Counted from the first letter of the stretch, positions 17,273-26,593 are shown. The stretch: DNA of 64,000 bases from Patescibacteria group bacterium (GCA_043817315.1 JBDRGY010000001.1:9732-73731); one strand, 5' to 3'. Program-made: numbers and translations. Notes: generated by a model from the letters alone, not told the origin.

Positions 17273-17737
17273 ATGCCATTAAAACTACACAATTTAAAAA
17301 CCAACCGACACAAGACCCGCCAAAGACGAGGTCGTGGCAATGCTACAGGTTCCGGAAATTATTCAGGTCGGGGAATGAAAGGTCAGAAATCGCGTTCCGG
17401 CGGAAGGCACAAGGGTCGTCATGCAGGTAAGAAATTTCCCGCCTTCATCGCTCAAATTCCTAAAAAAAGAGGATTTAGAAGCATCCATCCCCAAAAGATT
17501 GTGGTAAATATTGAAGACATCAATAAAGAGTTTAAATCGGGTGAAACCGTAGACGTTAAAAAGTTGAAAGAAGCGGGATTGATTACCCAAACTCATCCTG
17601 GAGTTAAGATATTGGGCCGGGGCAAGATGTCCAAAAAACTTACGGTAACAGCTGATAGTTTTTCAAAATCAGCGTTTGATGCTATAAAGAAAGCAGGTGG
17701 AGAGCCGATAATAATTAAGAAGCCAAAGAAAAAATAA
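17273..17737 (+). CDS. rplO: 50S ribosomal protein L15 (directly follows S5; no L30 gene between)
   Basis: MPLKLHNLKTNRHKTRQRRGRG.... Confidence 0.85.
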   Translation: MPLKLHNLKTNRHKTRQRRGRGNATGSGNYSGRGMKGQKSRSGGRHKGRHAGKKFPAFIAQIPKKRGFRSIHPQKIVVNIEDINKEFKSGETVDVKKLKEAGLITQTHPGVKILGRGKMSKKLTVTADSFSKSAFDAIKKAGGEPIIIKKPKKK

Positions 17738-19017
17738 TGGGTTTAATGCAAAAAGTGTCACAGGTCTGGCGCGTCAAAGATATTCGAAAGCGTATACTTT
17801 TTGTATTGGGACTGTTGATAGTTTTTAGAATAGCTGCTCATATCCCGGTGCCCGGAGTTGATGTAGAAGCCTTGAAACAATTTTTTGACAGTAACCAGGT
17901 TTTAGGTTTATTGAATCTGTTTTCTGGTGGGGCCATGGCCAACTTTTCCATAGTGATGCTTGGTGTCGCTCCCTACATTACCGCTTCCATTATTTTCCAA
18001 CTGCTGACCATGATTATCCCCAAACTGGAAGAAATCCAAAGGGATGGAGAGGCAGGCCGAGCCAAGATCAATCAATGGCAGCGTTATCTGACTATTCCTT
18101 TAGCTGCTCTGCAGGCCTACAGCATGATAATCATTCTGTCCAAGCAGGGCCAGGGGATTATCAATATTGTTTCTCCGATACAGTGGTTGAGCACTATCAT
18201 TACAATTACCGCCGGTACTGTATTTCTGATGTGGTTAGGTGAGCTGATTACCGAAAAAAATATCGGCAACGGAATTTCCTTAATTATTTTCGCCGGTATC
18301 GTAGCCAGATATCCCACTCAGCTGCAACAGACCATGGCTACTTTTGACGCTACTCAGGTAATTACCTTAATAATCTTTGCCACCATTGCCATTCTGACTA
18401 TTGCCGGGGTGGTATTGGTTACCCAGGGACAGCGCAATATTCCCGTATCTTATGCCAAGAGAATTAGGGGCAATAGGATGTATGGCGGGGTCTCTACCCA
18501 TTTACCATTGAAAGTTAACCAAGCCGGCGTCATCCCAATTATTTTTGCCATTTCTATTATTTTGATTCCACCCATGGTGGCGCAATGGCTGGTAAATTCC
18601 AATATCACTTGGCTGGCATCTCTGGCCAACACGACAGTCAATCTTTTCAACAACCAAATATTCTATTCGGCTATCTATTTTACTTTTGTTGTCGCTTTTA
18701 CTTATTTTTACACTGCGGTTGTTTTCCACCCGGATCAGATCTCGGAGAATTTACAGAAACAAGGTGGTTTTGTACCCGGAATCAGACCAGGGCGCAATAC
18801 AGCCGAGTTTCTCAGCTACACCTCCTCACGCATTCTGCTTACCGGTGCCTTATTCTTGGGCATCATAGCTGTTCTGCCGTATATCATGCAGGCTACGACT
18901 AATATCACCACTTTTGCTATTGGCGGTACCAGTTTATTGATTGTAGTTTCCGTGGTTATCGAGACAGTCAAACAGGTAGAATCTCAACTGATCATGCGGG
19001 ATTACGAAGGATTTTAG
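17737..19017 (+). CDS. secY: preprotein translocase subunit SecY
   Basis: 426 aa multi-TM protein with typical SecY N-terminus (RILFVLGLLIVFRIAAHIPVPG). Confidence 0.95.
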   Translation: MGLMQKVSQVWRVKDIRKRILFVLGLLIVFRIAAHIPVPGVDVEALKQFFDSNQVLGLLNLFSGGAMANFSIVMLGVAPYITASIIFQLLTMIIPKLEEIQRDGEAGRAKINQWQRYLTIPLAALQAYSMIIILSKQGQGIINIVSPIQWLSTIITITAGTVFLMWLGELITEKNIGNGISLIIFAGIVARYPTQLQQTMATFDATQVITLIIFATIAILTIAGVVLVTQGQRNIPVSYAKRIRGNRMYGGVSTHLPLKVNQAGVIPIIFAISIILIPPMVAQWLVNSNITWLASLANTTVNLFNNQIFYSAIYFTFVVAFTYFYTAVVFHPDQISENLQKQGGFVPGIRPGRNTAEFLSYTSSRILLTGALFLGIIAVLPYIMQATTNITTFAIGGTSLLIVVSVVIETVKQVESQLIMRDYEGF

Positions 19018-19054
19018 TTTAGGAAGTAGGGATTAAAATAACAAATATTAAAAA

Positions 19055-19085
19055 ATGACCGGGGTGTTCCGGTCATTTTAAATTC
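19055..19085 (+). terminator. terminator after secY
   Basis: Hairpin aatgaccggggtgttccggtcatt followed by ttta. Confidence 0.5.
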
Positions 19086-19103
19086 TGCTGTGTTGTGGAA
19101 TTA

Positions 19104-19242
19104 AAGCCTCAGCTTGGTGCGCCAGAGACTAAAGTCTCTAATCCACATAGTTTTTACTAACACCAGAAACTGAAGTCTCCATTCCGCGGAGGTTGTGGGA
19201 TAGAAGCTTCAGCTTCTTTGCACCAGAGGCTAAAGTGTCTAC
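19104..19242. repeat. REP-like palindromic repeat cluster upstream of RAYT
   Basis: Two copies of a ~37-bp unit, each with the hairpin core cCAGAGRCTAAAGTSTCTA (19122-19140 and 19223-19242). Also one copy of the 27-bp repeat atccacatagtttttactaacaccaga (19141-19167). Confidence 0.6.
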
Positions 19243-19260
19243 CCCCGTAATATATTAAAA

Positions 19261-19758
19261 ATGAAAAATCCTTATCATAATCCACCTCATATATATTTAG
19301 ATGATACTGTATATTTTATTACAGCTAAAACAATTGGGAAAAATAATCATTTTAGTTCTAATAAGAAAAAAGAAATACTGAAAAATAGATTATCGCAAAC
19401 AGTGAAAGAATTGAAAATAATAATATATGCCTGGGTTATTCTTGATAACCACTATCACTTACTAATTAAAATAAAGAAAAAAAGCGACCTATCAAAGTTG
19501 ATGCAGCTATTCCATGGAAGAACGTCTTATATATTAAATAAAGTTGATGACAAAAAAGGCAGGCAAGTCTGGTTTAATTATTGGGACCATTGTATTAGAA
19601 ATGAAAAAGATTTTAATAATCATCTAAATTACATACATTTTAATCCGGTTAAACACGGCTTAGTTAGTAAACCAGGAGATTATAAATATTCGAGTTACGG
19701 CCAATATTTGAAGAAGGGTTATTATGAGCGGAAGAGACTAAAGCTCCAATCCACATAG
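19261..19758 (+). mobile_element. IS200/IS605-like HUH tyrosine transposase of the REP-associated (RAYT) type
   Basis: HuH motif NHYHLLIK and a catalytic-Tyr region YIHFNPVKHGLV...YKYSSY. The 3' end of the ORF is built from repeat sequence. Palindromic REP-like repeats flank it on both sides. Confidence 0.6.
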
Positions 19759-19840
19759 TTTTTACTAACACCAGAGGCTAAAATCTCTATTCCTGGGGCA
19801 AACGAGAGACTAAAGTCTCTATCCCGCAGGGGTTTTTGTG
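19731..19840. repeat. REP-like repeat cluster downstream of RAYT
   Basis: A degenerate core gaagagactaaagctccaat (19731-19750). A second copy of the 27-bp repeat (19748-19774). Cores ccagaggctaaaatctctat (19771-19790) and cgagagactaaagtctctat (19803-19822). Then cccgcaggggttttt. Confidence 0.6.
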
Positions 19841-19911
19841 CTATAATAATGGAGGCTTGACAGTATACTAATATTAAGATAAAGTATTAGACTAAATATT
19901 AAAGAAAAATC

Positions 19912-22900
19912 ATGACTAAAAAGGTAATCATTTTAGCGGTGGTTGGCGTTTTTTGCTTATTTTATAGCGCTGATTCAGCTCGGGCTCCTTATAAACAGGA
20001 TAGCCCTCAATTATGTACCCAAAGCTCTGAAGTGCTCGGTATTGATCAATCTGATCCTACGCCCAAGATCGGTTCTGCTAACCCGGCCGCTGTTTATTGT
20101 ACCGAACTTGGCTATAAGCATGATATCATCACCGAAGCTGATTCTAGTCAGCACGCCGATTGCGTTTTCCCTGATAATAGCCGGTGTGATGAATGGTCAT
20201 TTTACTATGGACAATGCGGGCAGACCCATTCTTATTGCGCCCAAAACGGTTACGATATTATTACCAAACAAGCAAATGATAATCCTTATTCTCAAAAGTA
20301 CACGGTTTGTACCGAGAATGGCCGAGAGATCGGGGCGGTGGCTGACTTGATGAATCTGGAGGATAAAATTGTAGGAGCCAGTTATAAACCAACGGCTGAA
20401 GAGATTTTAGCCTCGAAAGACAGTGGATCCGGAAGTAACAGAGTCCTGCCGGATAGTTTTAACTGGCAAGACTTTTTAGGCCAGAATTTTATGACTCCGG
20501 TTAAAGATCAACAGACTTGCCCTCTTTGTTGGGCTTTTTCTGCTATCGGCACTACAGAAGGAATGTATGATATCAGAAATGGTGCTGATTACAATCTGGA
20601 CATGTCCGAACAACAAATAGCTTCATCCGGCGGAGTCGGCTATTGTGCCGGTTACGGCTGTGTCCCCGGTGGTTCAACTAATGCCTTGAATTATATCAGA
20701 GATTATGGTTTGGTCAGTGAAACTTGTTTCCCTTACACCAATAGTGGTTCAACACCCTGCAATCTGTGCAGTGGCTGGGAATCAGAATTGAAGTATATCA
20801 CTGATAAGAATATTGATATTCCTTCGGATACTGAATCAATAAAGGAGTATATTTTTAATCACGGACCGGTCTCGGTTAATATGGCTTTTGATTTTGGAAC
20901 TATTCAGTGGGGAGATTATGATGGCAATAATATTTACCGTTGTGATGAAGGAGACCCCGGTTATGACATCAACCACGCGGTGGTCATCTCCGGCTATAAT
21001 GAGATAGAAGATTATTGGGTAGTCAAGAACAGCTATGGAACATACTGGGGTCAGGGAAACGGAGATGGATACTTCAATGTCGGCTATGGCGAGTGCAACA
21101 TACAGGGCAGTCCTACCGGGGTAGAGCTGGACCATGAATGCGGAGGTTTTGTCTACACCCAAGCTGATGCCACTTTGAATAAAGATTTAATTGGCTGTTC
21201 AAATGGATTGAGCATCATGGCAGATGATATCGCGTTTGATTGCCAAGGCCACAAAATTTCCGGAACCGGATCTGGTGTTGGTATTAATCTTAATGGCAGA
21301 ACCAATGTGACGATTAATAATTGTGTGATAGAAGGCTTTGACACAGGAATAAATCTGGTCAATTCCGAGAATAATCAGTTCTTTGGCAATATTTTCATGA
21401 ACAATAATTTCAATGCTTCTGAAGATGCCAGCTCCAATAATAATAACTGGAATGATGTTGATACTGGAAATTATTGGGATGATTATGAAATCAATCCTGG
21501 ATTGCCATGGGGTTATGAGATTACCGGACCAGGAGATGGCATGGATTACAAATTTTATCTGACAGAAGACAATGTGACAACCTTCAACAACGGTCTACCT
21601 TCAGAGCAATTGACTTTTACCGGAGAAGATATTACAAGATATATTGAACTGCCCAAAGATAATCTAGCAATTGGTGGCGATTTTGAGGTGACAGGCATAG
21701 TCTCTTACACTGCTAATGATGATGAGTTCCAGGATGATTGGGATAGTGCAGGTGAGTTCTATCTGCCGGCTACTTACGGTCCGGAAAAAGCGGTAGACGG
21801 TGATTACGGTACCAAGTCAATTTGTGTTTATGACACTTATTGTGACATATTTGAATATTATGATAGAGATCCCAGTATTACTTCAGCTACCTGGACTTTC
21901 AAATATCAGCTTTATTCCGGAGCCGGCGGAGCTAAAGTAGAATGTTGGAATTATGACACTAGTGCTTATGAACAGTTTTATTATTCTAGTCAAACTAATA
22001 TCCAAACTAAGAGTGCAGCGGTTCCGGCAGCTTGCTTAAGCGGCCCGCAATTGAAAGTGAGAACACCAATGAACGGTTTAGGCGGCGGCGGTTTCCGCTT
22101 ATTTGAAAGTAAAGTAACCTGGGATGAACCGATGTATCCGACCAATCCGGAGATAGAAGTAGGGACCGATGACAATAATCCAGAATGGTCATACAGTGGA
22201 GTATTTGACCAAAGCAATGTAGCCATTGGCGACTTTTCTTATGCTTTGTATCAAGCGCTGAATCACGGGGCTTGTGATTGCACCGGCTGTACTTTAAACG
22301 ACGATACTTGTTCCATCCCGGTCAAATTCCATTCAGCCACCGGCGGAATCCTGGAGTATTCCAATATTGGAGTAAGTCATGCTTCCCCATTTTTAGACAC
22401 TGATAGCGATGGAGTGGCTGATGTGAATGATAATTGTCAGGCAACTTATAACCCGGGACAGGAAGACTTTGACGAAGACGGAATCGGTGATGTCTGTGAC
22501 AACTGCCAAAACGACTACAACCCCGGGCAAGAGGACGGTGATGGTGATCTGATCGGCAACGTCTGCGATAATTGTCCGATTAACTATAACCCCGGCCAAG
22601 AAGACGGTGATGGAGATCTTGTTGGTGATGTCTGTGATAATTGTGAGTTTATTAATAACCCCGGCCAAGAAGATGATGACTCGGATGGGATTGGTAACGT
22701 TTGTGACAACTGTGTGGAAGATTATAACCCAACCCAGTTAAACTCTGATGCCGATGTCTGGGGTGACGCTTGTGACAATTGCCATTTGGTATACAACCCT
22801 GCCCAAGGAGACATTGATACAGACACTGTCGGCGATGCCTGTGATTACGAAGATTATGAATATATTAGGCATTTCTCGGCTGAATATTTGGATACCGGCA

Positions 22901-23364
22901 ATGTCAGTTATGACAATGTAATGGGTGGCGGGCCCTGTAACCAGCCTGGTGGTTGTGAATACACAGACCAAACAACTTCAGTAGCCTTCTGCAATGGACC
23001 GAGTTATCCCAACTATTGTAGCTACCAAGGAACCTGCTACGAGGGAAATGGTTCAGTAATCTTAGATATTGACGGCGATGATCGACACGAAGCCATCTGT
23101 GTCGGTAAGGGCTGGTGGGACTTAGATTCCGGAACTGAGTTAGGTTATGGTTATACGCCGTTACCGGGCATAGAAGTGTGTGAAATGGGTGGTTATCAGT
23201 GGCTACCAGGCGAAACAACCGCTGTGGGTGAATACCTGTGGAGTTACAATAACTTCGGTTGTTGCGGAGATGATGAGGGTGAGTATATTGATGGAATAAC
23301 CTGCAAGAGTTCGATTAGAAAATCAATTCCGGTCAAACAGCCAATTATCGGCTTATTTCGATAA
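19912..23364 (+). CDS. large secreted multidomain protein: signal peptide, papain-like (C1) cysteine peptidase domain, beta-helix-like region, six thrombospondin type-3-like Ca-binding repeats, Cys-rich C-terminus
   Basis: N-terminal hydrophobic leader. QQTCPLCWAFSAIG (catalytic Cys) with NHAVVISGYNE...YWVVKNSYGTYWG (His/Asn/Trp). Six DxDxDGxGDxCDNCxxxYNPxQED repeats at 22393-22850. Own promoter TTGACA-17-TAAAGT at about 19857-19890. Confidence 0.7.
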   Translation: MTKKVIILAVVGVFCLFYSADSARAPYKQDSPQLCTQSSEVLGIDQSDPTPKIGSANPAAVYCTELGYKHDIITEADSSQHADCVFPDNSRCDEWSFYYGQCGQTHSYCAQNGYDIITKQANDNPYSQKYTVCTENGREIGAVADLMNLEDKIVGASYKPTAEEILASKDSGSGSNRVLPDSFNWQDFLGQNFMTPVKDQQTCPLCWAFSAIGTTEGMYDIRNGADYNLDMSEQQIASSGGVGYCAGYGCVPGGSTNALNYIRDYGLVSETCFPYTNSGSTPCNLCSGWESELKYITDKNIDIPSDTESIKEYIFNHGPVSVNMAFDFGTIQWGDYDGNNIYRCDEGDPGYDINHAVVISGYNEIEDYWVVKNSYGTYWGQGNGDGYFNVGYGECNIQGSPTGVELDHECGGFVYTQADATLNKDLIGCSNGLSIMADDIAFDCQGHKISGTGSGVGINLNGRTNVTINNCVIEGFDTGINLVNSENNQFFGNIFMNNNFNASEDASSNNNNWNDVDTGNYWDDYEINPGLPWGYEITGPGDGMDYKFYLTEDNVTTFNNGLPSEQLTFTGEDITRYIELPKDNLAIGGDFEVTGIVSYTANDDEFQDDWDSAGEFYLPATYGPEKAVDGDYGTKSICVYDTYCDIFEYYDRDPSITSATWTFKYQLYSGAGGAKVECWNYDTSAYEQFYYSSQTNIQTKSAAVPAACLSGPQLKVRTPMNGLGGGGFRLFESKVTWDEPMYPTNPEIEVGTDDNNPEWSYSGVFDQSNVAIGDFSYALYQALNHGACDCTGCTLNDDTCSIPVKFHSATGGILEYSNIGVSHASPFLDTDSDGVADVNDNCQATYNPGQEDFDEDGIGDVCDNCQNDYNPGQEDGDGDLIGNVCDNCPINYNPGQEDGDGDLVGDVCDNCEFINNPGQEDDDSDGIGNVCDNCVEDYNPTQLNSDADVWGDACDNCHLVYNPAQGDIDTDTVGDACDYEDYEYIRHFSAEYLDTGNVSYDNVMGGGPCNQPGGCEYTDQTTSVAFCNGPSYPNYCSYQGTCYEGNGSVILDIDGDDRHEAICVGKGWWDLDSGTELGYGYTPLPGIEVCEMGGYQWLPGETTAVGEYLWSYNNFGCCGDDEGEYIDGITCKSSIRKSIPVKQPIIGLFR

Positions 23365-23650
23365 ATACAGCTTTAAAATTACCCGTTGGTTATGATATAG
23401 CCGGCGGGTAGTTTTTGTTATGTTTTACGACAATTACCGAACCGCCCCCTTGGCCACTTTGTTGGGTAATAACCCAAAGCCGTTTCCCCCTCCTTATCAA
23501 GGAGGGGAGAATGAGTTGGTTCTTTTTGCTGAGTAAGTGTTAGAGGGGAGGTCCGGTATCCTAGAACATATTACAAAGTAATCTAGTTAAACTCGGTCAT
23601 TTTATTATTTTATGCTATAATAAACGGGTAATTTTTATTGAATAATATAA

Positions 23651-24340
23651 ATGAACACTTTAGGCAATCCTAAACATTTGGTTTTCTTAGGGCCGCCGGG
23701 TTCCGGCAAGGGAACTCAGGCCAAGCTTTTGATGGAGCAATGGAAGATGAATTATCTTTCCACCGGTGATATGGTCCGGGATTTTTTGGCCAAAGCCAAA
23801 GATGGAGATAATGTTGGTAGCGAGATGAAAGTAAGATATGACAAAGGTATTCCCCAGCCCGATGATTTGATAATTAAGGGTGTAAGGGAAGTGATCAAAA
23901 ACTGGGATTTGAGAAAGGGTGTCATTTTTGACTCTTTTCCCCTATCCGAGCAGCAGGCCTGGGGATTAGATCTGATTGTTAAGGATTTTATCATGGAAAT
24001 CCCCATCGTCCTCTACATTGCCATTTCAGAGGAAGAGGCAGTCAACCGACTCTCCAAAAGGAAATATTGTCCTAACTGCAAATCTGTTTTTTACCCCCTA
24101 TCGCCCAATTATGAAAGTGGTTCTTGTGATAAGTGCAGTACAGTATTAATTTCTCGCTCTGATGATAAACCGGAAGTGGTTAAGAAGCGATATCTGGAAT
24201 ATGTAGGACGCATGGAGGCCTTGAAAAAATTCTATGAACCCAGACTTCGCTGGGTTAATATTGACGGGGAACAGTCTGTCGAGGAAGTACAACAAGAGAT
24301 AATAAAAAAATTGACCGAGTTTCGAGCCAAAAGAGCATGA
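23651..24340 (+). CDS. adk: adenylate kinase (zinc-finger LID)
   Basis: GPPGSGKGTQ P-loop and CPNC...CDKC lid motifs. Confidence 0.9.
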   Translation: MNTLGNPKHLVFLGPPGSGKGTQAKLLMEQWKMNYLSTGDMVRDFLAKAKDGDNVGSEMKVRYDKGIPQPDDLIIKGVREVIKNWDLRKGVIFDSFPLSEQQAWGLDLIVKDFIMEIPIVLYIAISEEEAVNRLSKRKYCPNCKSVFYPLSPNYESGSCDKCSTVLISRSDDKPEVVKKRYLEYVGRMEALKKFYEPRLRWVNIDGEQSVEEVQQEIIKKLTEFRAKRA

Positions 24341-25081
24341 TCGATATAAAGACCGATAAAGAAATTGCCTTGATGAAAAAGGGAGGGCAAATATTGTCCC
24401 TGGTTCTTCATCAAGTAGCCAAAAGTGTCAAACCCGGAATCTCCACCTACGACCTGGATAAAATGGCTTATCAAATGATAAAACAAAGGAAGGCCAAGCC
24501 TTCTTTTTTGGGTCATGAAGGTTATCCCGCCTCTCTCTGTGTTTCTATCAATGAAGAATTGGTGCATGGCTTGCCTCATAAAGACCGAATAATAAAGTCA
24601 GGAGATATTGTCAGTGTTGATCTGGGGGTTAAATATAAGGGACTTTATACTGATATGGCTCTGACAGTTGCGGTGGGCCAAATAAGTCCGGAAGCTTAAA
24701 AAACTGATCAGAGTTACGGCTAAATCATTGGATAAAGCCATTAAGGTATTGCGACCCGGTGTTCATCTGGGTGATGTATCGGCAGCCATTCAGAATTATG
24801 TGGAGCAGCAAGGTTTTTCCGTGGTACGCCAGCTGGTGGGTCACGGAGTAGGCAAAAAAGTCCACGAAGATCCCCGGGTGCCCAATTTCGGAAAGAAAGG
24901 GGAGGGAGTAATCCTCAAAGAAGGCATGTGCTTGGCTATAGAGCCGATGGTTAATATGGGCGGTGCGGACGTTGCCCTAAAAGGTGATGACTGGACCTAT
25001 CAATCGGCTGATTCTAGCTTATCAGCCCATTTTGAAAAGAGCATAGCCATTGTCAAAAACGGCTACCTAATTCTGACTTAA
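24337..25081 (+). pseudogene. map: methionine aminopeptidase type I split by a +1 frameshift in an A6 run (24698-24703)
   Basis: ORF 24337..24699 is the MAP N-terminal half ending ...VAVGQISPEA*. The next frame continues KLKKLIRVTAKSLDKAIKVLRPG..., which is the contiguous MAP sequence through to 25081. Confidence 0.75.
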
Positions 25082-25086
25082 GGAAT

Positions 25087-25485
25087 ATGGGAAAATATTT
25101 AGGAATCGACTACGGTAATAAACATGTCGGTATAGCAATCAGCAACGAAGAAAAAAATTTCGTTTTACCACGAGAAGGAGTGGCTACCAAAGAAATTTTC
25201 GATTACCTAAAAAATATTGTGGAAGATGAAGCCATTGAAAAAATCATCGTCGGCCTCCCCATAGGATTAAACGGCCAAGAGACGGCCCAAACCAAGAAGA
25301 CCAGAGAATTTATAGAGCAGCTTAATTGCCGACTGTCTGTTGAAATTGTAACCGAAGATGAAAGGCTAACCACCGGTGCAGCTAATCGTTTACTGGTGGG
25401 GTTAGACAAAAAATCGAAAAAGAAGAAAATTGACCAAAGTGCTGCCGCTTTGATATTACAAGATTATTTGACCAAAAATGCTTAA
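25087..25485 (+). CDS. ruvX: RuvX/YqgF Holliday-junction-resolvase-like pre-16S rRNA nuclease
   Basis: GIDYGNKHVGIAISN N-terminus, 132 aa. Confidence 0.8.
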   Translation: MGKYLGIDYGNKHVGIAISNEEKNFVLPREGVATKEIFDYLKNIVEDEAIEKIIVGLPIGLNGQETAQTKKTREFIEQLNCRLSVEIVTEDERLTTGAANRLLVGLDKKSKKKKIDQSAAALILQDYLTKNA

Positions 25486-26593
25486 TTATAGTTCCTACAT
25501 TTTACCTTTTGGCCTGGGAGTAGTTTTTGCAGTTATCTTTACCCTGGTAATCAAGAAAGTTGCTAATCAATGGCAAATTGTCGATCGGCCAGAAACTGAC
25601 CCAGCCAGAAAGATTCAGGATAAACCAACTCCTCTTTTGGGCGGCCTGGCTATCTATCTAGCCTTTTTAGTTGTGATCTTAATCTACGCCCTGGGCACTG
25701 ATCGCTTGTTCGGAGGATACTTCTTGCCTAAACATCTGGCGGGTCTTCTCCTGGCCGGTTTCTTTATAATGATTGGTGGCTTTTTGGATGATCGGTTTGA
25801 CCTTAAGCCCAAAAAGCAAATTATCTGGCCCCTATTGGCTGCTCTATCCATCATTGCGGCCGGCATCGGCATTAGTTACGTTACCAACCCCCTAGGCGGC
25901 ACCCTATATTTGGATCAGATAAAAATCAAACTTTTTAGTTTGGGAGATACTCCCTACAATTTTATCCTCTGGGCGGATATTTTTGCCCTGTTGTGGTTAC
26001 TGGGCATGATGTATACCACCAAGTTTTTAGACGGACTGGACGGATTGGTGGCCGGAATCAGCACCATTGGCGCTTTCATAATTTTTCTGCTCAGCCTAAA
26101 TCAAGAAGTGGCCCAGCCGGAAACCGCCTTGATCAGTATCATATTTGCGGGGGCGGCCCTGGGCTTCTTATTTTTTAATTGGCATAGGGCCAAGATATTT
26201 TTAGGCGAAGGAGGGTCACTATTTTGCGGTTTTATGCTGGGAATCCTGGCCATTATTTCCGGGGCCAAGATTGCAACAGCCTTACTGATTGTAGGAATCC
26301 CCATTTTAGACGTTATCTGGGTGGTTATCAGGAGACTATTTTTAGAAAGAAAATCACCTTTCTTTGGAGATAGTAAACATTTACATTTTCGTTTATTGGA
26401 TGCAGGACTAAGCCATCGTGGCGCTGTTTTGCTGCTTTATCTACTGACTATCATGTTCGGGATTTCCGCTCTTATCCTCAAGGGCCAGTGGAAACTATAT
26501 TCCCTGCTTATCCTGGCTGGGGTGATGATTATTATGGCCATTGTTCTGGTTTTGGCTTATCGGCGCAAGAAAGTTGACCCCGAAACAAATTAA
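25478..26593 (+). CDS. polyprenyl-phosphate N-acetylhexosamine-1-phosphate transferase (MraY/WecA family)
   Basis: About 10 TM segments and the DDRFDLKPKKQI loop, 371 aa. Whether it is the WecA or MraY subfamily cannot be decided. Confidence 0.6.
   Translation: MLNYSSYILPFGLGVVFAVIFTLVIKKVANQWQIVDRPETDPARKIQDKPTPLLGGLAIYLAFLVVILIYALGTDRLFGGYFLPKHLAGLLLAGFFIMIGGFLDDRFDLKPKKQIIWPLLAALSIIAAGIGISYVTNPLGGTLYLDQIKIKLFSLGDTPYNFILWADIFALLWLLGMMYTTKFLDGLDGLVAGISTIGAFIIFLLSLNQEVAQPETALISIIFAGAALGFLFFNWHRAKIFLGEGGSLFCGFMLGILAIISGAKIATALLIVGIPILDVIWVVIRRLFLERKSPFFGDSKHLHFRLLDAGLSHRGAVLLLYLLTIMFGISALILKGQWKLYSLLILAGVMIIMAIVLVLAYRRKKVDPETN

What the first reader, a model, noticed from the sequence alone, without database searches (positions are those of the whole stretch)
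19100..19845. REPtron-like element: IS200/IS605-type RAYT transposase flanked by clusters of REP-like palindromes, inserted after secY
The 165-aa ORF has the HUH motif (NHYHLLIK) and a catalytic-Tyr region (NPVKHGLV...YKYSSY) typical of REP-associated tyrosine transposases. Two hairpin-core repeats cCAGAGRCTAAAGTSTCTA lie upstream and three downstream. A 27-bp direct repeat (atccacatagtttttactaacaccaga) occurs on both sides (19141-67 and 19748-74). The last ~9 codons of the ORF are themselves made of repeat sequence. The insertion sits between secY and adk, which are adjacent in most bacteria. RAYT/REP systems are not commonly discussed in AT-rich small-genome lineages such as this one appears to be.
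Basis: partly seen in the sequence, partly recalled or inferred. Interest (0 to 1): 0.65.

Follow-up and report, generated by a model that had tools for sequence, protein, structure and literature searches.

The report
REP-associated transposase with flanking hairpin repeats
A small gene for a domesticated-type single-strand DNA transposase (RAYT), surrounded by copies of the short hairpin repeat it presumably acts on, sits just after secY in a Patescibacteria genome; this is a well-known kind of element found here in a little-studied phylum.

Summary
ORF 19261-19758 (165 aa) is a REP-associated tyrosine transposase (RAYT). It scores 131.7 bits on NCBIfam REP_Tyr_transpos (cutoff 80) and only 28.4 on the IS200 model (cutoff 55). 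Its AlphaFold model matches E. coli TnpA_REP (4er8, TM 0.74) best. The HUH motif (H64/H66), catalytic Y124 and metal ligands N128/H132 are intact.

The gene is flanked by seven or eight copies of a 6-bp-stem hairpin repeat (AGAGAC-TAAA-GTCTCT-AYYCC). None occurs elsewhere in the 64-kb window.

The same repeat family flanks RAYT homologues down to 49% identity in other Patescibacteria-like contigs. There it often forms inverted doublets with a canonical GTAG tag, and its stem shows compensatory changes.

The whole ~750-bp unit lies between the secY terminator and the promoter of a 1150-aa peptidase gene; adk follows that gene. One sibling lineage has a clean empty site. Two others carry the unit at the same place.

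The gene is under purifying selection (dN/dS 0.09), but its C-terminal tail has been replaced by repeat-encoded residues.

Whether the repeats are dispersed in this genome could not be tested. Verdict: a new member of a known kind, of moderate to low interest.

The parts
19052..19079 (+). secY intrinsic terminator hairpin. This is context: it marks the left boundary of the inserted unit.
   Evidence: 11-12 bp stem, -11.5 kcal/mol, z -5.7, followed by TTTTAAATT. Conserved in L001, L051, L047 and L053.
19084..19835 (+). The whole RAYT-REP unit (REPtron), about 750 bp. It is absent as a block from the same site in the sibling lineage L051.
   Evidence: Alignment of both junctions with the empty site of L051.
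19092..19115 (-). Degenerate inverted REP copy (GTTGTGGAATTAAAGCCTCAGCTT).
   Evidence: 83% identical to the inverted copy at 19192-19215 (family D4). Only a weak 4-bp hairpin.
19122..19146 (+). REP copy 1, perfect hairpin AGAGAC-TAAA-GTCTCT. Read on the minus strand, the tag is TTAG.
   Evidence: nhmmer 26.5 bits. ssDNA fold -3.6 kcal/mol, z -3.0.
19141..19167 (+). 27-nt spacer, copy 1 (ATCCACATAGTTTTTACTAACACCAGA).
   Evidence: Exact, two copies in 64 kb, 0 expected.
19163..19219 (+). REPIN-like inverted doublet: REP copy 2 (19163-89, AGAAAC-TGAA-GTCTCC) facing an inverted REP (19195-19217, minus strand, AGAAGC-TGAA-GCTTCT-ATCCC).
   Evidence: nhmmer hits on both strands. Folds as one long imperfect hairpin at -7.8 kcal/mol, but z is only -0.9.
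19223..19247 (+). REP copy 3, next to the RAYT start, with an imperfect stem. On the minus strand it carries the canonical GTAG tag (GGGGTAGACAC...).
   Evidence: nhmmer 21.7 bits. This copy and the following TAATATATTAA(A/G)AATG are conserved in L001.
19261..19758 (+). RAYT gene (165 aa): HUH at H64/H66, catalytic Y124, metal ligands N128/H132. The tail 156-165 is encoded by repeat DNA.
   Evidence: dN/dS 0.09 against L001.
19733..19754 (+). Degenerate REP copy inside the 3' end of the RAYT ORF. A 1-nt deletion has destroyed the hairpin.
   Evidence: nhmmer 11.2 bits. No fold. The equivalent copy in L001 is intact.
19749..19775 (+). 27-nt spacer, copy 2. It contains the RAYT stop codon (TAG at 19756-58).
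19771..19797 (+). REP copy 4 (AGAGGC-TAAA-ATCTCT-ATTCC), imperfect stem.
   Evidence: nhmmer 25.1 bits.
19803..19833 (+). REP copy 5, perfect hairpin. Its tail ATCCCGCAGGGG plus a T-run forms a small terminator-like hairpin.
   Evidence: nhmmer 27.5 bits. Fold -5.4 kcal/mol, z -2.4. Terminator-like site at 19821-33. Conserved in L001.
19857..19885 (+). Promoter-like site of the downstream peptidase gene (TTGACA-17-TAAAGT). This is context: it marks the right boundary.
   Evidence: Conserved in L001, L051 and L047.

Best explanation
This is a REPtron: one gene for a REP-associated tyrosine transposase (RAYT, the TnpA_REP branch of the Y1 HUH single-strand DNA transposases), embedded in a cluster of its cognate REP hairpins.

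The proposed mechanism is taken from E. coli TnpA_REP. The protein binds the folded hairpin on single-stranded DNA and reads the short 5' tag next to the stem. That tag is GTAG in the relatives L005 and L042, and GTAG, ATAG, TTAG or ATGG in this window. The protein then cuts nearby with Y124, using a metal ion held by H64, H66, N128 and H132. Cutting and rejoining at these hairpins copies, deletes and reshuffles REP units and inverted doublets (REPINs). This happens mostly next to the gene and occasionally elsewhere in the genome.

The unit has sat between the secY terminator and the promoter of the next gene in at least three related lineages. In other relatives it is absent from the site as a block.

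Shown here: family membership, intact catalytic residues, purifying selection, repeat structure with compensatory stem changes, turnover of the flanks between relatives, and the empty site.

Inferred: that this protein acts on these hairpins, and that it spreads them.
For: Protein:
- NCBIfam NF047646 131.7 bits (cutoff 80), against IS200 28.4 bits (cutoff 55). All 23 aligned homologues match the same model.
- 4er8 is hit by sequence at E 3e-14, with HUH and Y115/N119/H123 aligned. The fold search gives TM 0.74, against 0.55 for IS608.
- Invariant catalytic columns are retained.
- dN/dS is 0.09 over 155 codons against the 82%-identical orthologue.

Repeats:
- They occur only around the gene in 64 kb and far exceed chance.
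- The same core flanks RAYTs of 82%, 73%, 56% and 49% identity (L001, L053, L042, L005).
- More distant Kerfeldbacteria homologues carry a different flanking palindrome, as expected if protein and repeat co-evolve.
- Stem covariation: 92.6% of cells paired, 4 of 6 pairs with compensatory changes, 0/500 shuffles reach the observed score.

Activity and turnover:
- Unit number differs: 7-8 in the window, about 13 recognised in L001 and at least 6 in L053.
- Within each genome the modules left and right of the gene are near-identical, but they differ between genomes. The window has the 27-nt spacer; L001 has ATCCACGGTG.

Dispersal in relatives:
- A doublet lies 3 kb from the RAYT in L005.
- A doublet lies between the peptidase gene and adk in L037. 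That contig comes from the same sample as L047, whose secY junction lacks the RAYT.
- Doublets without a RAYT nearby occur in L004 and L020.
Against: - No REP copy lies outside the RAYT flanks in 64 kb.
- In the metagenome sample that holds the closest relative, only the RAYT contig matched the 21-mer. A dispersed population, which is the usual hallmark of REP systems, is therefore not shown for this lineage.
- Only two of the copies fold into a perfect hairpin, the stems are short (6 bp), and the doublet is not more stable than shuffles.
- The canonical GTAG tag is present on only one copy here.
- The conserved C-terminal tail seen in homologues is missing. In E. coli that tail supplies the metal ligand E161 and contacts GTAG. 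The replacement tail is predicted disordered.
- No biochemical evidence exists for this protein.
Confidence: 0.8

Rival explanations
1. An autonomous IS200-like insertion sequence. The gene and its hairpin-bearing ends move together as one unit, and arrived at the secY site by transposition or horizontal transfer.
For: - The unit is present or absent as a block, with a clean empty site in L051.
- RAYT-positive lineages are not monophyletic on a SecY tree.
- The ORF has 28.7% GC against 43% for its surroundings.
- The RAYT-peptidase block is less diverged from L001 (78% nt) than the adk block (67%).
- Both ends share a 50-nt direct module.
Against: - The IS200 equivalog model is failed, at 28.4 bits against a cutoff of 55, while the RAYT model is passed.
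- There is no second copy in 64 kb.
- The same site is occupied in lineages whose RAYTs have diverged to 73-82% identity under dN/dS 0.09. That points to long residence rather than a recent hop.
- The GC deficit is shared by all six homologous loci whatever the host GC, so it does not mark a recent transfer.
- There are several hairpins per flank rather than one left-end and one right-end hairpin.
- No relatives were found on viral contigs.
Confidence: 0.12
2. A decaying relic. The transposase is crippled by loss of its C-terminal tail, and the hairpins no longer move. They persist only as structural or terminator-like elements between the secY operon and the next gene.
For: - The tail is replaced by repeat-encoded residues of low model confidence.
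- Most hairpins are imperfect.
- No copies occur elsewhere in the window.
- The last copy doubles as a terminator-like hairpin.
Against: - Strong purifying selection acts on the core, and every invariant catalytic residue is kept.
- The left and right modules are homogenised within each genome but differ between genomes. That argues for copying after the lineages split.
- Imperfect stems are normal for REPs, and in E. coli they are required for binding.
Confidence: 0.08

Closest known systems
E. coli TnpA_REP (YafM; PDB 4er8) and its REP/BIME sequences; 'REPtron' in the sense of Ton-Hoang et al. 2012
   Same: Same fold and active-site residues: HUH, Tyr, and Asn/His on helix D. The size is similar (165 aa). 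The gene is flanked on both sides by its cognate hairpin repeats in both orientations. A short tag sits next to the stem, and the stems are imperfect.
   Different: - About 23% identity over the structural alignment with 4er8.
- Much shorter hairpins (6-bp stem, 4-nt loop).
- The tag is mostly ATAG or TTAG rather than GTAG.
- The C-terminal tail that holds E161 is missing.
- No dispersed repeat population has been shown.
- The host is a small-genome Patescibacteria lineage.
REPIN-RAYT systems of Pseudomonas and enterobacteria (Bertels and Rainey)
   Same: - Apparently a single RAYT.
- Purifying selection on the gene.
- The site is conserved among some relatives.
- Inverted REP doublets occur next to the gene and, in relatives, elsewhere in the genome.
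   Different: - Copy number is far lower: none outside the flanks in 64 kb, against tens to hundreds per genome in those systems.
- Presence is patchy among close relatives.
- The gene's GC content is persistently below that of the host.
IS200/IS605 family insertion sequences (IS200, IS608, ISDra2)
   Same: Y1 HUH transposase, subterminal hairpins, single-strand DNA chemistry, and block-wise presence or absence with a clean empty site.
   Different: - Fails the IS200 profile cutoff.
- The fold is closer to TnpA_REP.
- No tnpB gene.
- Multiple hairpins per side.
- No extra copies seen.
GTAG-tagged REP families and REPtrons catalogued by Di Nocera et al. 2013 (PMC3733652)
   Same: - Tagged short stem-loops.
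- Head-to-head and tail-to-tail dimers and clusters.
- Flanking repeats that overlap the 3' end of the RAYT gene.
- REPtrons missing from some strains.
   Different: That catalogue reports GTAG repeats in Proteobacteria, Cyanobacteria, Chloroflexi and the PVC group, not in Patescibacteria. This hairpin sequence is not among the families I could check.

Membership tests
RAYT (TnpA_REP clade of Y1 HUH transposases) | Y1_Tnp domain and fold | tested here: met
   Pfam PF01797 39.2 bits (cutoff 23). AlphaFold model with pLDDT 87 has 4er8 as its top PDB hit, TM 0.74 and rmsd 2.6 A.
RAYT (TnpA_REP clade of Y1 HUH transposases) | HUH motif, catalytic Tyr, and the Asn/His metal ligands on helix D | tested here: met
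   H64-Y-H66, Y124, N128 and H132 align with H59/H61, Y115, N119 and H123 of 4er8. They are invariant among 23 homologues.
RAYT (TnpA_REP clade of Y1 HUH transposases) | Scores as RAYT rather than as IS200 transposase | tested here: met
   NF047646 131.7 bits (cutoff 80). NF033573 28.4 bits (cutoff 55).
RAYT (TnpA_REP clade of Y1 HUH transposases) | C-terminal extension that completes the active site (E161 in E. coli) and contacts the tag | tested here: not met
   Homologues carry GWGYIEP... or ...YPIIDF tails. This protein ends in ERKRLKLQST, encoded by repeat DNA, with pLDDT below 50. E156 could substitute, but this was not tested.
RAYT (TnpA_REP clade of Y1 HUH transposases) | Gene flanked by REP or REPIN sequences | tested here: met
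   Three direct and up to two inverted copies upstream, three direct copies downstream.
RAYT (TnpA_REP clade of Y1 HUH transposases) | Single copy per genome | tested here: inconclusive
   One copy in 64 kb by tblastn. The remaining part of the 321.5-kb contig and the rest of the genome could not be retrieved.
RAYT (TnpA_REP clade of Y1 HUH transposases) | Flanking 16-mers over-represented across the genome (a dispersed REP population) | tested here: inconclusive
   None outside the flanks in 64 kb, and none on other contigs of the sample that holds L001. Dispersed doublets of the same family are seen in related genomes (L005, L037, L004, L020).
RAYT (TnpA_REP clade of Y1 HUH transposases) | Vertical inheritance at a stable locus | tested here: inconclusive
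   The site after secY is the same in the window, L001 and L053. The unit is absent in L051, L045 and L047, which fall among them on a SecY tree.
REP / REPIN sequences (GTAG-tagged) | Short imperfect palindrome forming a stem-loop, with the structure conserved | tested here: met
   Two perfect and several imperfect 6-bp stems. Compensatory changes in 4 of 6 pairs across 36 distinct units (units were preselected for at least 4 pairs).
REP / REPIN sequences (GTAG-tagged) | Conserved GTAG tag 5' of the stem | tested here: inconclusive
   The tag is GTAG on nearly every copy in L005 and on three of the flanking copies in L042. In the window it is GTAG on one copy and ATAG, TTAG or ATGG on the others.
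REP / REPIN sequences (GTAG-tagged) | Inverted doublets (REPIN/BIME) | tested here: met
   19163-19219 in the window. Clear doublets in L004, L005, L020, L037 and L042.
REP / REPIN sequences (GTAG-tagged) | Many extragenic copies per genome | tested here: inconclusive
   Only the cluster around the gene in the 64 kb available. The genome-wide count could not be made.
IS200/IS605 insertion sequence | Transposase matches the IS200/IS605 TnpA model | tested here: not met
   28.4 bits against a cutoff of 55.
IS200/IS605 insertion sequence | Several near-identical copies of the whole element | tested here: inconclusive
   No second copy in 64 kb. The rest of the genome was not available.

The most novel reading that the evidence does not exclude
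In streamlined Patescibacteria genomes the RAYT and its hairpin flanks may still move, or excise precisely, as one unit. That would make it an intermediate between an IS200-type insertion sequence and a fully domesticated RAYT: REP copies stay almost entirely next to the gene instead of forming a genome-wide population. The evidence consistent with this reading is the clean empty site, the patchy distribution among close relatives, the persistent low GC of the gene, and the absence of dispersed copies.
Probability: 0.2. Interest if true: 0.55.

Novelty: new member of a known kind. Interest (0 to 1): 0.33.

Why it matters
RAYT-REP systems have been studied almost only in Proteobacteria, and I found no paper describing them in Patescibacteria. 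This locus and its relatives show that the system exists in these very small, gene-dense genomes. They also show that one hairpin family has been kept across RAYTs as divergent as 49% identity. Sibling lineages provide occupied and empty versions of the same site. That gives a compact natural test case for two questions: how such a system persists where there is almost no intergenic space, and whether the unit itself still moves. The practical consequence for annotation is small: the gene should be named REP-associated tyrosine transposase rather than 'transposase'.

Tried and rejected
Retrieving the rest of the genome:
- Exact-product look-ups for the RAYT found no record.
- The source assembly is not among the species-representative genomes.

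Other readings of the locus:
- A scan of 64 kb for a second RAYT or IS200 copy found none.
- CRISPR-like or tandem array: no tandem repeats, and the units are irregularly spaced with non-unique spacers.
- Known RNA family: no Rfam match at E up to 1.
- Phage origin: no RAYT relative and no REP 21-mer on viral contigs.
- Recent foreign origin inferred from low GC: rejected as a simple explanation, because all six homologous loci show the same deficit.

Misleading hits:
- The many 21-mer hits in samples Ga0256843 and Ga0256828, and in Campylobacteraceae and Francisella MAGs, belong to a different composite repeat in low-GC organisms with no RAYT relative in the fetched DNA. They were not used as evidence.
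- Single hits in L008, L025 and L031 lie inside a long ORF and were set aside.

Full report
**1. The observation**

The 165-aa ORF at 19261-19758 on the + strand is real. The hairpin core AGAGACTAAAGTCTCT, with up to three mismatches, gives eight matches on the two strands against 0.34 expected, and no shuffle reaches that number. All but one weak intragenic hit lie between 19124 and 19820.

A profile built from ten copies recovers the following in the window:
- five clear direct copies: 19122-46, 19163-89, 19223-47, 19771-97, 19803-29;
- a degenerate copy inside the 3' end of the ORF: 19733-54;
- an inverted copy: 19195-19217.

Nothing else in the 64 kb scores convincingly. A second, weaker inverted copy lies at 19092-19115.

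The 27-nt direct repeat is exact, at 19141-67 and 19749-75, and is unique to these two places. It is the spacer of a 50-nt REP-spacer-REP module that is 88% identical on the two sides of the gene. The last eight codons and the stop codon of the ORF are repeat sequence.

Folded as single-stranded DNA, only copies 1 and 5 form a perfect 6-bp stem with a 4-nt loop (-3.6 and -5.4 kcal/mol). The others are imperfect.

**2. The protein**

- Pfam Y1_Tnp is matched at 39.2 bits (cutoff 23).
- NCBIfam's equivalog model for REP-associated tyrosine transposases is matched at 131.7 bits (cutoff 80). The IS200/IS605 model gives only 28.4 bits (cutoff 55).
- The only solved relative found by sequence is E. 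coli TnpA_REP bound to a REP hairpin (4er8, E 3e-14).

In the 4er8 alignment H64-Y-H66 falls on the HUH motif. Y124, N128 and H132 fall on Y115, N119 and H123, which the structure paper names as the catalytic tyrosine and metal ligands (PMC3479197).

An AlphaFold model built from 23 homologues has mean pLDDT 87. Its best PDB match is 4er8 (TM 0.74, rmsd 2.6 A), well ahead of the IS608, ISDra2 and IS200 transposases (TM about 0.55).

One defining feature is missing. Homologues carry a conserved C-terminal tail (GWGYIEP... in the closer ones...YPIIDF in the more distant ones). This protein ends in ERKRLKLQST, encoded by a degenerate REP copy and its spacer, and that tail is modelled with pLDDT below 50. 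In E. coli the tail supplies E161 to the metal site and contacts the GTAG tag.

**3. Context**

The window comes from an NCBI Patescibacteria MAG (protein MFH1597487.1, contig of 321,535 bp). Its closest named SecY relatives are Kerfeldbacteria.

Upstream lie the ribosomal protein genes and secY (17737-19017), which ends in a strong terminator hairpin at 19052-79. Downstream of the unit is a promoter-like site (19857-85). It is followed not by adk but by a 1150-aa DUF333/Peptidase_C1/NosD/TSP_3 protein (19912-23364). After that come adk (23651-24340), map, ruvX and a family-4 glycosyltransferase.

**4. Relatives**

| Locus | SecY identity to window | RAYT identity to window | What follows secY |
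|---|---|---|---|
| L001 | secY not on contig | 82% | REPs, RAYT, REPs, peptidase, adk, map, ruvX; about 13 recognisable REP units |
| L053 | 84% | 73% | terminator, REPs, RAYT, REPs; stem changed to GGAGAC/GTCTCC |
| L051 | 86% | no RAYT | terminator, then directly the conserved peptidase promoter; no RAYT, no REP |
| L047 | 83% | no RAYT | unrelated palindromes, then the peptidase gene |
| L045 | 86% | no RAYT | a subtilase-like gene |
| L049 | 73% | no RAYT | adk directly, followed by the gene order seen in the window beyond adk |

L051 is a clean empty site, and it bounds the unit to about 19084-19835. L037 comes from the same sample as L047 and has a REP doublet of the present family between the peptidase gene and adk.

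On a SecY neighbour-joining tree the RAYT-positive lineages are not monophyletic. Either the unit was lost more than once or it was gained more than once at this site.

More distant homologues sit in unrelated contexts:
- L042 (56% identity) is flanked by GTAG-tagged doublets of the same hairpin family.
- L005 (49% identity) is flanked in the same way, and has a further doublet 3 kb from the gene.
- L041, L043 and L044 (50-54% identity, Kerfeldbacteria) are flanked by a different palindrome.

**5. Evidence on function**

Over the 155-codon core, window against L001 gives dN/dS 0.09. The gene is therefore maintained by selection.

Across 36 distinct REP units from ten loci, 92.6% of stem cells are paired. 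Four of the six pairs show compensatory double changes (AGAGAC/GTCTCT, AGAGGC/GCCTCT, AGAAGC/GCTTCT, GGAGAC/GTCTCC, AAAAGC/GCTTTT), and no shuffle or slid register approaches this. The units had been preselected for at least four pairs, which inflates the paired percentage but not the compensatory pattern.

The flanks turn over quickly. Unit numbers differ between relatives. Within each genome the left and right modules are nearly identical, while they differ between genomes: the window has the 27-nt spacer and L001 has ATCCACGGTG, and L001 also has 81-nt and 50-nt modules shared by its two flanks. This points to copying or conversion after the lineages split.

**6. What could not be shown**

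The rest of this genome was not retrievable. In the 64 kb there is no copy away from the gene. In the metagenome sample that holds L001, the only contig with the exact 21-mer is the RAYT contig itself. Dispersal is documented only in related genomes.

**7. Comparison with what is known**

All the features seen here are described for REPtrons and GTAG-tagged REPs in PMC3479197, PMC3733652 and PMC5581495:
- a RAYT flanked by REPs in both orientations;
- repeats that overlap the 3' end of the gene;
- REPtrons missing from some strains.

NCBI annotation already names homologues in Kerfeldbacteria MAGs 'REP-associated tyrosine transposase'. I found no paper describing the system in Patescibacteria.

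The locus is therefore a new member of a known kind. Four features set it apart: very short hairpins, a mostly non-canonical tag, a truncated tail, and no demonstrated dispersed population.

**8. Unexplained**

The RAYT ORF has 28.7% GC (GC3 27%) against 43% for the window. The same 7-15 point deficit is seen in all six homologous loci, whatever the host GC.

The RAYT-peptidase block is 78% identical in nucleotides to L001, while the adjoining adk-to-glycosyltransferase block is only 67% identical.

These facts leave room for the unit, or the block, being exchanged between related lineages. That is the basis of the more novel reading, to which I give a probability of about 0.2.

Noticed in passing
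window 24337-25081: The methionine aminopeptidase gene (map) is split into two ORFs, 24337-24699 and 24728-25081. The cause is a frameshift at an A6 run near 24690-24702 (GAAGCTTAAAAAACTG). Relatives have one gene of 248-252 aa. This is either a homopolymer sequencing error or a real frameshift.
   Followed up: partly
window 19912-23364: A 1150-aa protein with a DUF333 domain, a papain-like C1 peptidase domain, a NosD-like beta-helix and thrombospondin type-3 repeats lies between secY and adk. It is present in the window, L001, L051 and L047 (65-78% identity). It is absent in L049, where secY abuts adk. In L045 a subtilase-like gene takes its place, although the SecY there is nearly identical to that of L051. 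The space after secY is a hot spot for gene gain and exchange in this clade.
   Followed up: partly
window 19261-19758; also L001, L053, L042, L005, L041, L044: The RAYT genes have 7-15 points lower GC than their surroundings in every locus examined, and the offset tracks host GC. This holds at synonymous sites too: in the window GC3 is 27%, against 38-48% in the neighbouring genes. It is unexplained.
   Followed up: partly
window 19005-23276 compared with 23610-26590, against L001: There is a step in divergence from the closest relative. Nucleotide identity is about 78% over the RAYT and peptidase genes and 67% over adk, map, ruvX and the glycosyltransferase. Synonymous sites are saturated in adk and ruvX but not in the RAYT.
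   Followed up: partly
L003, L006, and L009-L040 (mostly samples Ga0256843 and Ga0256828): The identical 21-mer AGAGACTAAAGTCTCTGTTCC occurs on some two dozen contigs of a low-GC (30-37%) organism, and in Campylobacteraceae and Francisella MAGs. On most of these contigs it follows a second hairpin of the form GTGCGACTTTTAGTCGCAC, and in L003 it forms a 59-nt tandem array. No relative of the window's RAYT (tblastn, E up to 1e-3) lies in the fetched DNA. Either distant lineages share this hairpin by convergence or the repeat has been transferred.
   Followed up: partly
L047 1950-2015 and L037 345-405; window about 23450-23482: A second small palindromic element (TTAGCCACTTTAGTGGCG...CCCGACTAAAGTCGG) occurs twice in one relative: after secY, and between the peptidase gene and adk. 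The window has what looks like a decayed remnant at the corresponding place before adk, next to a 9-bp-stem hairpin at 23487-23507.
   Followed up: no
L042 1883-1905: In the 56%-identical homologue the RAYT stop codon TAG is the TAG of the GTAG tag of the first downstream REP. Repeat copies therefore overlap the 3' end of the gene in several lineages independently.
   Followed up: no
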